A stretch of DNA of 64,000 nucleotides from Eledone cirrhosa (lineage: Eukaryota): the NCBI GenBank assembly GCA_964016885.1, contig OZ024743.1:226610001-226674000 (forward strand), in the 5' to 3' direction. The notes under the pieces are model-generated. The model made no database searches, was not told where the DNA came from, and was given only the letters and a program-made list of their open reading frames with translations. The translations under genes were made by a program, and so were the position numbers. Of the stretch, positions 60,621 through 61,545 are shown in pieces (the first letter of the stretch is position 1; each line of letters starts with the position of its first letter).

Positions 60621-60988
60621 ATATACGATATTAATAAATGGAAACTATGTTTATAAAACCATATTTATTTCATTATACATATTTCAGGGATACCAAATTA
60701 AATTATGGTATGCCTTCATCAGACAAAATACAATATATAACAGTTTTACAAATAAGCTTTGACGTACCCTTTTAAAATGCAACCATTATTTTTGGAAGCC
60801 ATCCAGATGGCTTCCAAAAATAATGGTTGCATTTTAAAAGGGTACGTCAAAGCTTATTTGTAAAACTGTTATATATTGTATTTTGTCTGATGAAGGCATA
60901 CCATAATTTAATTTGGTATCCCTGAAATATGTATAATGAAATAAATATGGTTTTATAAACATAGTTTCCATTTATTAATATCGTATAT
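60621..60988. mobile_element. Apparently perfect ~370-bp fold-back HHR element, same family as the 2347-6178 PLE 3' end
   Basis: Centre ggaagccatc-ca-gatggcttcc at 60804-60805; tail tatggttttata..tagtttccatttattaatat is shared with 5935-5970. Confidence 0.92.
60879..60943 (+). ncRNA. Minimal type I hammerhead ribozyme (mirror copy 60666-60730, -)
   Basis: TATTTTGT-CTGATGA-AGGcATACCA-taatttaatt-TGGTATcCCT-GAAA-T-ATGT-A-TA-ATGAAATA. Confidence 0.85.
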
Positions 60989-61271
60989 ATATATATATAT
61001 ATATATATATATACACATATATATATATATATATATATATATATATATATATATATATATATATATATATATATATATATATATATATATGTGAATACTT
61101 TCATTATAAAAAAAGGTTTAAGTGAACGTGACCCAATGGGTCTCAGGCGGTACAGAGTTAGAATATATATATAAAAATATATATGACAGGGTTCTAAACA
61201 CCATTATCAGACTAAAATTTCTTTAGTAAAAAAATACGGTGAAAGCTATTCTATTTTCTAATATATATATA

Positions 61272-61545
61272 TATAACATTAACAGTATTAATAAATTGGA
61301 AATATCTTTACAAAACCATATTTATTCTATTATACGATTTCAAGGGTACTAACATTTTAGTACGCTTTCGTCAGATGGGCTTATACTATTAAGATCACAC
61401 GAAGGTATGTCACTATCTTAACACCAAATATTATATTGTATCTGACGAAAGCGTAGTAAAATGTTAGTACCATTGAAATACGTATAATACAATAAATATG
61501 GTTTTGTAAAGATATTTCCTATTTATTAATATTGTTAATATTAAT
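61272..61545. mobile_element. Older asymmetric fold-back HHR element of the same family
   Basis: 61275-61376 mirrors 61440-61545; the spacer contains tatgtcactat as at ~5841. Confidence 0.85.
61434..61494 (+). ncRNA. Minimal type I hammerhead ribozyme (mirror copy ~61323-61376, -)
   Basis: TATTGTAT-CTGACGA-stem II-GAAA-T-ACGT-A-TA-ATACAATA: perfect 8-bp stem I and palindromic loop 3. The mirror copy has stem II AAGcGTACTAA-aatg-TTAGTACcCTT. Confidence 0.85.

What the first reader, a model, noticed from the sequence alone, without database searches (positions are those of the whole stretch)
60621..61545. One HHR family at three sizes and ages, with covarying stems
The HHR and downstream tail of the endonuclease-bearing 3.8-kb fold-back (2564-2628/5869-5932) recur in a perfect 370-bp palindrome and a decayed 270-bp one. 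Stem II differs but stays paired (GCACCAAG/CTTGGTTGC, ATACCA/TGGTAT, GTACTAA/TTAGTAC inside AAG..CTT or AGG..CCT). Stem I covaries (TATTGTAT/ATACAATA), and loop 3 is ATAT, ATGT or ACGT. This compensatory variation argues for a selected RNA structure and directly links the coding PLE to the miniature palindromes.
Basis: partly seen in the sequence, partly recalled or inferred. Interest (0 to 1): 0.8.

Follow-up and report, generated by a model that had tools for sequence, protein, structure and literature searches.

The report
Twin RNA hairpins mark transposon ends
These palindromes are the paired ends of a very abundant jumping gene that carries a hammerhead-type RNA motif, and their two arms stop just before one or the other of two copies of a conserved RNA hairpin, which likely holds two copying enzymes that write the RNA into both DNA strands at once.

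Summary
The three sites are 3′ ends of one Hydra-clade Penelope-like retrotransposon lineage (at least 24,668 hammerhead copies in this genome), from three subfamilies 74–81% alike, not one element shrinking with age. The hammerhead core is invariant in 19 recurrent haplotypes and six pairs covary, but the cited stem I change occurs once in the genome. The palindromes are not a mobile miniature family: 50 sampled have 50 different centres; head-to-head outnumber tail-to-tail 2,990 to 75. The two end sites lie about 7 nt before two tandem bulged hairpins (RCUC…GAGY-RC) in the leader. The same motif occurs in 34 of 40 leaders of distant relatives (twice in 19; shuffles 0.44 and 0), with one pair switching C–G/U–A in 74 of 75 copies. 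I found it neither in Rfam nor in the papers searched. Best reading: two reverse transcriptases, one per hairpin, prime both target strands (inferred). No copy starts at the ribozyme cut (0 of 74). Inverted ends and one-sided tails are known; the twin hairpins appear new and make their origin testable.

The parts
60535..60983 (.). Young head-to-head insertion: left arm ends at the long site B (with tail), right arm at the short site A; both flanked by (TA)n
60618..60991 (.). Perfect palindrome, 186-bp arms, CA loop at 60804-60805; the centre lies 3 nt inside the TCACTA site where long arms pile up
60879..60943 (+). Type I hammerhead motif, intact core, AUA triplet, loop 3 AUGU; identical to a haplotype seen 14 times
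60666..60730 (-). Mirror copy of the same hammerhead motif
60535..60625 (-). Tail between end sites A and B, on the left arm only
60597..60618 (-). Hairpin H1 (ACUC-C…G-UC-GAGU-GC), 7 nt 3′ of site A
61276..61638 (.). Older head-to-head insertion of a second subfamily: left arm ends at A, right arm carries the tail to B; arms 92.8% alike; junction near 61376-61378
61434..61494 (+). Decayed hammerhead copy with private stem I double change and broken stem II pairs
61323..61376 (-). Hammerhead copy truncated 2 nt before the core (stem I lost)
61549..61573 (+). Hairpin H1 of the second subfamily (decayed)
2346..6266 (.). Long head-to-head insertion of a third subfamily: endonuclease-bearing long arm (-) ends at A, inverted arm (+) carries the tail to B; 628-nt loop
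4101..4493 (-). 5′-truncated ORF end: GIY-YIG-type endonuclease of Hydra type (YVG, degenerate CxxC, CxH)
2564..2628 (-). Hammerhead motif, intact core, loop 3 AUAU
5869..5932 (+). Hammerhead motif with core change CUAAUGA, predicted inactive
5981..6170 (+). SINE-like repeat between site duplication 5963-5978/6164-6179, just 5′ of H1; mirrored at 2350-2537 (-), 94% alike
6183..6204 (+). Hairpin H1 of the third subfamily, in the tail
5795..5804 (+). TCACTATCC motif, likely transcription start of the pLTR; mirrored at 2693-2702 (-)
   Evidence: start-site role inferred

Best explanation
The three sites are insertion products of a Hydra-clade Penelope-like retrotransposon whose two arms end about 7 nt before one or the other of two tandem bulged hairpins (H1, H2) in its leader, and these hairpins likely anchor two reverse transcriptase-endonuclease molecules that prime cDNA on both strands of a (TA)n target. 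Shown: lineage identity, copy number, head-to-head bias, one tail per insertion, position of the ends, conservation and covariation of the hairpin. Inferred: RNA starts near TCACTA and runs hammerhead, site A, H1, site B, H2, AUG. One enzyme starts at A, the other at B, on opposite target strands. Both copy towards the RNA 5′ end, and the two cDNA ends are joined. If both start in the leader, they reach the RNA 5′ end after 130-240 nt and a miniature palindrome results; if one or both start at a downstream repeat, a long fold-back with ORF results; if the B enzyme stops early, only an inverted tail is left. The template is likely uncut by the hammerhead, which is kept under selection for another step, probably dimer cleavage of tandem transcripts.
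For: Tail on exactly one arm in 46 of 50 palindromes picked by ribozyme core alone, both arms in 0 (1 doubtful); chi-square p 1e-8; 12 of 14 pairs in a second, partly overlapping sample, 1 unclear, 1 with none, 0 with both. The arm reaching further 5′ ends at A in 25, at B in 8, so most short arms hold sequence that the long arm lacks; 11 of 45 A-ended arms are joined to an inverted piece made only or mostly of tail. 2,990 head-to-head against 75 tail-to-tail. 5′ ends pile up 122-141 nt before the cut, at TCACTA, in 19 of 74, and 0 of 74 lie within 8 nt of the cut. The TA run starts 7 nt before H1 in 92 of 167 A ends; B ends fall 3-9 nt before H2, an interval that includes 7. Two unrelated hammerhead families of the window have the same hairpin 5-8 nt after their short end. 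In distant relatives 34 of 40 leaders hold the motif, 19 twice; the pair above the bulge is C-G 47, U-A 26, G-C 1, unpaired 1, switching 6 times on a protein tree, at least 4 forced; 4 foreign copies end in (TA)n 2-8 nt before a hairpin. A Poseidon-clade enzyme extends both strands, starts internally at two sites that bound the tail, is predicted dimeric and uses uncut RNA (PMC11167929).
Against: No biochemistry and no RNA data for this element. PMC11167929 saw no difference in start site between strands and places starts inside an AC-rich stem-loop, a different geometry, in another clade. Some long arms end at B and some arms run past TCACTA, so tandem, read-through or circular templates must also be used. 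A third hammerhead family of the window shows the one-tail rule without this hairpin. Within this lineage the leader's long stem has only one compensatory event, and my exact pre-stated partner sequence gave 0 matches. Covariation shows a single-stranded fold, not whether it acts as RNA or as cDNA. Junction microhomology (median about 2 nt) was not tested against a null.
Confidence: 0.6

Rival explanations
1. A hairpin or double-stranded DNA intermediate is made first (self-priming, possibly on an antisense template), and the endonuclease then resolves it by cutting at A on one arm and B on the other; the twin hairpins are then recognition sites in DNA or cDNA.
For: Self-priming on an antisense template was proposed in PMC3846280 (Discussion) and endonuclease resolution for the tail in PMC8557442. 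The D. virilis endonuclease needed the tail to cut a plasmid (as cited in PMC11167929). It allows either arm to carry the tail.
Against: It does not explain inverted pieces made only of tail (11 of 45), nor the pile-up of long-arm ends at one sense-strand motif. Variable loop length (6-21 nt) and a bulged, covarying stem suit a folded strand better than a duplex site. The in vitro enzyme starts at the two tail boundaries on sense RNA (PMC11167929).
Confidence: 0.2
2. A single cDNA folds back on itself and is copied back to the target (snap-back), so the second arm is a copy of the first.
For: Arms are identical in young copies, share private variants, and some centres are perfect hairpins.
Against: The copied arm must be nested in the first. 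In 25 of 33 informative cases the longer arm ends at A, and in most of these the shorter arm holds the tail, which the longer arm lacks; tail-only inversions exist.
Confidence: 0.08
3. The small palindromes are a non-autonomous, ribozyme-bearing family (retrozyme- or MITE-like) that amplifies as a unit, descended from the long element.
For: Thousands exist; one other locus (L007) has the same centre as the window copy; retrozymes derive from pLTRs (10.64898/2026.07.22.740005).
Against: 50 of 50 centres differ, with 44 different lengths (two of them are near-identical duplicates of a segment); each subfamily makes its own; the ribozymes lie on opposite strands, not in tandem; palindromes lack H2; the shared centre sits at the common 5′ pile-up site.
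Confidence: 0.07
4. The palindromes are assembly or library fold-back artefacts.
For: One assembly; one palindrome is perfect.
Against: Arms differ by a tail and by age-like divergence (93-100%), flanks differ, and the rule repeats at 50 loci and in three other families.
Confidence: 0.02

Closest known systems
Hydra clade of Penelope-like elements (Craig et al. 2021, PMC8557442), including Hydra-1_Obim
   Same: Single ORF with RT and C-terminal GIY-YIG endonuclease; DKT, CxCX5C, CxxC, CxH; hammerhead; (TA)n target; inverted 5′-truncated copy; tail at one end.
   Different: A different family from Hydra-1_Obim (other hammerhead, compared by eye with supplement files S2 and S7); unit about 3.7-4.3 kb rather than under 3 kb; tail about 90 nt rather than 30-40; RWR for RWK; tens of thousands of copies. 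The twin hairpins are not mentioned in the main text (0 hits for hairpin, stem-loop, stem loop) though visible by eye in several of its consensus sequences.
PAc (Poseidon, Anolis) internal initiation, Frangieh et al. 2024, PMC11167929
   Same: Two internal start sites bounding the tail; both target strands extended; uncut RNA used; sequence 3′ of the start required.
   Different: Other clade; starts lie in an AC-rich stem-loop inside the ORF; no tandem hairpins and no account of inverted repeats in the text read.
[quoted passage not shown]
   Same: Type I, palindromic stem/loop III, family-level covariation, opposite-strand pairs 100-700 bp apart reported in Schistosoma.
   Different: Stem II here is 3 bp + C·C + 6 bp, begins with A-U and lacks the 5′ bulged base.
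Inverted pLTRs with palindromic junctions in Adineta Penelope elements (Arkhipova et al. 2013, PMC3846280)
   Same: Head-to-head arrangement, optional tail on one pLTR, initiator-like TCACT in the pLTR.
   Different: Explained there by self-priming on antisense RNA; the counts here favour two primings on sense RNA.
L1 twin priming and hepadnaviral epsilon (both recalled, not tested here)
   Same: Two primers on one RNA give an inversion; a bulged stem-loop positions an RT.
   Different: Here the inversion usually duplicates sequence, and the start lies 5′ of the hairpin rather than in its bulge.

Membership tests
Hydra-clade PLE | Single ORF, RT followed by C-terminal GIY-YIG endonuclease | tested here: met
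   735-742-aa ORFs with YRDD and YVG in L303-L305; 34-41% identity to 15 database proteins. Pfam gave no hit for the 5 partial frames of this lineage scanned.
Hydra-clade PLE | DKT in place of DKG | tested here: met
   KSDKTNN
Hydra-clade PLE | N-terminal RWK motif | tested here: inconclusive
   RWR at the aligned place; homologues have RWK or RWR
Hydra-clade PLE | CxCX5C linker; CxxC and CxH round conserved E and N; no CCHH | tested here: met
   CNCRNKSNC, CDLCIEE, CRH
Hydra-clade PLE | Insertion into (TA)n | tested here: met
Hydra-clade PLE | Hammerhead in the pLTR, before and after the ORF | tested here: met
Hydra-clade PLE | Length under 3 kb ('generally') | tested here: not met
   3′ hammerhead lies 3.5-4.0 kb after the start codon; a tendency, not a defining motif
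Hydra-clade PLE | Placement in the RT phylogeny with reference clades | not tested
   The tree has no reference Neptune, Poseidon or Nematis rows
Type I hammerhead ribozyme | Core CUGANGA…GAAA, NUH triplet, three stems | tested here: met
   19 of 19 recurrent haplotypes, AUA triplet; stem III forms only as a dimer
Type I hammerhead ribozyme | Match to an Rfam hammerhead model | tested here: not met
   No hammerhead family among 26 matches to E 10 in 60600-61600, nor in 17 loci to E 0.05
Type I hammerhead ribozyme | Self-cleavage | not testable with these tools
   No assay; 0 of 74 copies start at the cut
Non-LTR retrozyme | Tandem repeats of short units, each with a hammerhead on one strand | tested here: not met
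   14 head-to-head, 3 same-strand, 0 tail-to-tail neighbours among the first 100 matches
MITE-like miniature family | Many copies with one length and junction | tested here: not met
   50 different centres in 50, 44 lengths

The most novel reading that the evidence does not exclude
Hydra-clade elements carry an undescribed, clade-wide pair of bulged RNA hairpins that act as two docking sites for a dimeric telomerase-related reverse transcriptase. Each fixes a start 7 nt upstream, one on each target strand, so that one RNA is written into both strands at once. This would be the general cause of the inverted repeats and one-sided tails of Penelope-like elements and a 30-nt portable signal that programs where this enzyme starts.
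Probability: 0.45. Interest if true: 0.82.

Novelty: new variant of a known kind. Interest (0 to 1): 0.63.

Why it matters
How Penelope-like elements make their inverted repeats and tails is an open question: PMC8557442 names an in vitro system for it as the next task, and PMC3846280 left sense versus antisense templates undecided. This genome offers tens of thousands of natural products that obey a simple rule (one A end, one B end), and a short conserved RNA motif that predicts both ends. That turns the question into a few point-mutation experiments. These enzymes are the closest relatives of telomerase, so an RNA element that sets the start of copying is also of evolutionary and engineering interest. 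Separately, thousands of 100-300-bp near-perfect inverted repeats would give long double-stranded RNA wherever they are transcribed (inference, untested).

Tried and rejected
Repeat finder on the whole window: swamped by TA repeats. Rfam: only microRNA-like hits below curated thresholds on palindromes and microsatellites. Pfam did not recognise the endonuclease or the partial ORFs. Monomer folding does not single out the hammerheads or tails (z -0.4 to -2.6). Stem I change as inherited covariation: rejected, 1 match in the genome. Pre-stated partner for the second subfamily's long leader stem: 0 matches; the copies found later keep a G-U pair there but do show the CAG/CUG swap on both sides. 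A pseudoknot in the leader was considered and dropped: the helices nest. Ribozyme cut as 5′ end of inserted copies: rejected, 0 of 74. Other copies carrying the SINE at the same site: none among loci held, no genome-wide search made. Sequencing runs: no RNA holder listed; contigs of four runs from one study cover the stretch in short pieces and none spans it. MAFFT did not align the hairpin loops, so the motif was counted by anchors in a script. Earlier findings of this scan: nothing in three look-ups. Lunse et al. 2017 is not held; known to me only through a review's passages.

Full report
Observation. The six hammerhead-like motifs are present at the stated places and the three sites match one another at 74-81%. 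The young palindrome has perfect 186-bp arms round a 2-nt loop. The older one has arms 92.8% alike (103 of 111), the long fold-back 90.4% (265 of 293) near the ribozyme and 95.1% (998 of 1,049 aligned columns) further in. In every case the ribozymes read outwards, head to head, on opposite strands.

What the element is. The endonuclease fragment at 4101-4493 has at least 150 relatives in the genome (49,605 first-look candidates, 150 scored). Full-length copies have one ORF of 735-742 aa with RWR, DKT, YRDD, CxCX5C, YVG, CxxC and CxH, a hammerhead about 240 nt before the start codon and another after the ORF. These are the marks of the Hydra clade as defined in PMC8557442 (section 11 read). A 23-nt pattern of the ribozyme has 24,668 exact matches, control 0. 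Each of the three window subfamilies has ORF-bearing copies of its own: L142 carries the young palindrome's ribozyme next to ORF residues 129-728, L141 and L316 the second subfamily, L057 the third. The host looks like a cephalopod to me; that rests on recall of the SINE and was not tested.

Is the ribozyme under selection? Of 388 distinct arms in the loci held, 19 haplotypes recur at three or more loci. All 19 keep CUGANGA, GAAA and AUA; 97.6% of 380 cells pair; 6 of 20 pairs change on both sides; 0 of 500 shuffles reach the score and slid controls give at most 1 such pair. Kin share changes, so these are a handful of events. One lineage loses a stem II pair (7 of 19). Private changes in 137 single arms break pairs 101 times and keep them 53 times; against 12 kept and 4 broken pair types among recurrent haplotypes (hand-tallied) Fisher p is 0.002. 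Loop 3 moves A-U, G-U, G-C as a self-complementary dimer helix would. Cleavage was not tested, and no Rfam hammerhead model matches.

The palindromes are made at insertion. Within 10-400 nt, head-to-head cores number 2,990 and tail-to-tail 75 (one plain pattern, so lower bounds; tail-to-tail pairs also need more room). Among the first 100 matches, neighbours within 5 kb are 14 head-to-head, 3 same-strand, 0 tail-to-tail. The first 50 of the 2,990 have 50 different centres. In 46 of them exactly one arm has the tail, in 4 neither, in none both (one doubtful partial case, L202; p 1e-8). The arm reaching further 5′ ends at the short site A in 25, at the long site B in 8, 3 unclear, 14 equal. A copy-back arm cannot contain what its template lacks, so simple snap-back fails for most. 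Of 45 A-ended arms in a sample picked downstream of the cut, 11 are joined to an inverted piece made only or mostly of tail, 5 to a longer inverted arm with tail, 21 to no partner that I could detect, and 8 run beyond the stretch examined. In the same 74 arms no 5′ end lies within 8 nt of the ribozyme cut, 19 lie 122-141 nt upstream at TCACTA, and 2 lie in the next 60 nt. TCACT is called initiator-like in another Penelope pLTR (PMC3846280, passage), so I infer the RNA 5′ end there. Many arms run past it, so longer templates exist too.

What marks sites A and B. In full-length leaders each site is followed by a copy of one motif, RCUC-C…G-UY-GAGY-RC, 84-97 nt apart; a 9-10-bp stem encloses B and the second copy and ends just before AUG. 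The TA run begins 7 nt before H1 in 92 of 167 A ends, and one subfamily pins the junction to exactly 7 with no homology; B ends fall between 9 and 3 nt before H2. Within the lineage the covariation is thin: one pair, three rows, one event, and my exact advance prediction failed. Outside it the signal is strong. Two other hammerhead families of the window have the hairpin 5-8 nt after their short end; a third does not. I then saw it by eye in the Hydra consensus file of PMC8557442: twice in the Hydra-1_Ajap leader, once in the tails of Hydra-2_Ajap and Hydra-2_Amil, altered in Hydra-1_Crog, unclear in Hydra-1_Obim, absent from the truncated Hydra-1_Amil (supplement parts 52-53). With the pattern fixed after that, 78 related loci from metagenomes were fetched. 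Of 42 that I picked for a near-complete 5′ end, 40 had a distinct leader of 90 nt or more: 19 hold two copies, 15 one, 6 none; shuffles give 0.44 with one and none with two; 1 of 336 ORF windows has one. Across all 78 loci there are 75 distinct sense copies (15 antisense). The pair above the 2-nt bulge, not part of the pattern, is C-G 47, U-A 26, G-C 1, G·A 1; slid controls give 2 and 11 of 75. On a tree of 29 proteins the H1 pair switches 6 times, at least 4 forced by well-supported branches. Many of these contigs may come from related hosts. Four foreign copies whose 3′ repeat runs into (TA)n do so 2-8 nt before a hairpin (L346, L398, L405, L407); the interval for L346 is 2-6 and misses 7; the other 11 repeat pairs listed end at a contig edge, are full duplicates or end otherwise.

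A natural experiment. In the long fold-back a SINE sits just 5′ of H1 in both arms, 94% alike against 84-90% to other SINE copies. The site duplication gives two copies of the A sequence, and the A-ended arm ends at the one next to H1. If the SINE was in the donor RNA, the hairpin, not the distance from the ribozyme, sets the start. Gene conversion between arms is the alternative; only 13 nt of homology lie beyond the SINE. One case only.

Mechanism. I commit to twin priming: two enzyme molecules, each held by one hairpin, start at A and B on opposite strands of a cut (TA)n target, copy uncut RNA towards its 5′ end, and their products are joined (0.6). The support from biochemistry is indirect: the Anolis Poseidon enzyme extends both strands, starts at two internal sites bounding the tail, is modelled as a dimer, and does not need ribozyme cleavage (PMC11167929, parts 1-2 of 4 read). 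The main rival is resolution of a ready-made DNA hairpin by the endonuclease, with the motif read in DNA (0.2).

What is known and what is not. Hammerheads in pLTRs and opposite-strand pairs: PMC4209133 (parts 1-2 of 4 read). Inverted pLTRs, palindromic junctions and one-sided tails: PMC3846280 (passages and Discussion), PMC8557442 (passages), PMC2377424 (passages). A Hydra family in an octopus is listed (supplement). Retrozymes as pLTR derivatives: 10.64898/2026.07.22.740005 (part 1 of 5). I did not find the twin hairpin or a twin-priming account for these elements in eight searches (listings and abstract starts only, apart from the papers named) or in Rfam. Subscription papers, figures and Lunse et al. 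2017 were not visible. Verdict: the finding as written is a new, very abundant member of a known clade with expected covariation; the tail motif found by following it is apparently undescribed and makes an open mechanism testable. Interest 0.63.

Noticed in passing
window 10613-11218: Second hammerhead family, head to head (cores 10695 -, 11017 +), tail on the right arm only, with a GCTC…GAGC hairpin at 11111-11132, 6-8 nt after the short end.
   Followed up: partly
window about 23890-24145: Another hammerhead family with a long A-U-rich stem II, head to head round a 9-nt centre, tail on the right arm only, hairpin at 24077-24097.
   Followed up: partly
window 11793-12832: Third family (cores 11990 -, 12587 +) with a ~60-nt tail on one arm but no such hairpin; also seen in L061, L123, L133. 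Possibly another PLE clade with the same one-tail rule.
   Followed up: partly
window 2350-2537 and 5981-6170: One SINE-like insertion present in both arms of the fold-back; at least a dozen other copies or fragments of this SINE lie in the window (e.g. 17546, 24350, 55911, 61691, 61863).
   Followed up: partly
L126:3160-3215, L288, L291: Full-length copies preceded by an inverted piece of tail only (about 45 nt), as two primings on one RNA would give.
   Followed up: partly
L295-L314: Several uninterrupted ORFs of 735-750 codons in different subfamilies, and a 3.7-kb tandem pair (L312); the lineage was active recently.
   Followed up: partly
L068:3026 (-): A related hammerhead with the same stem I but a different, longer stem II.
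   Followed up: no
window 42500-46024: About 3.5 kb of TA-rich microsatellite that dominates repeat and Rfam output.
   Followed up: no
L021-L024; L200/L201: Identical insertions repeated within 0.6 Mb of C5 and 51 kb of C1, probably segmental duplications.
   Followed up: no
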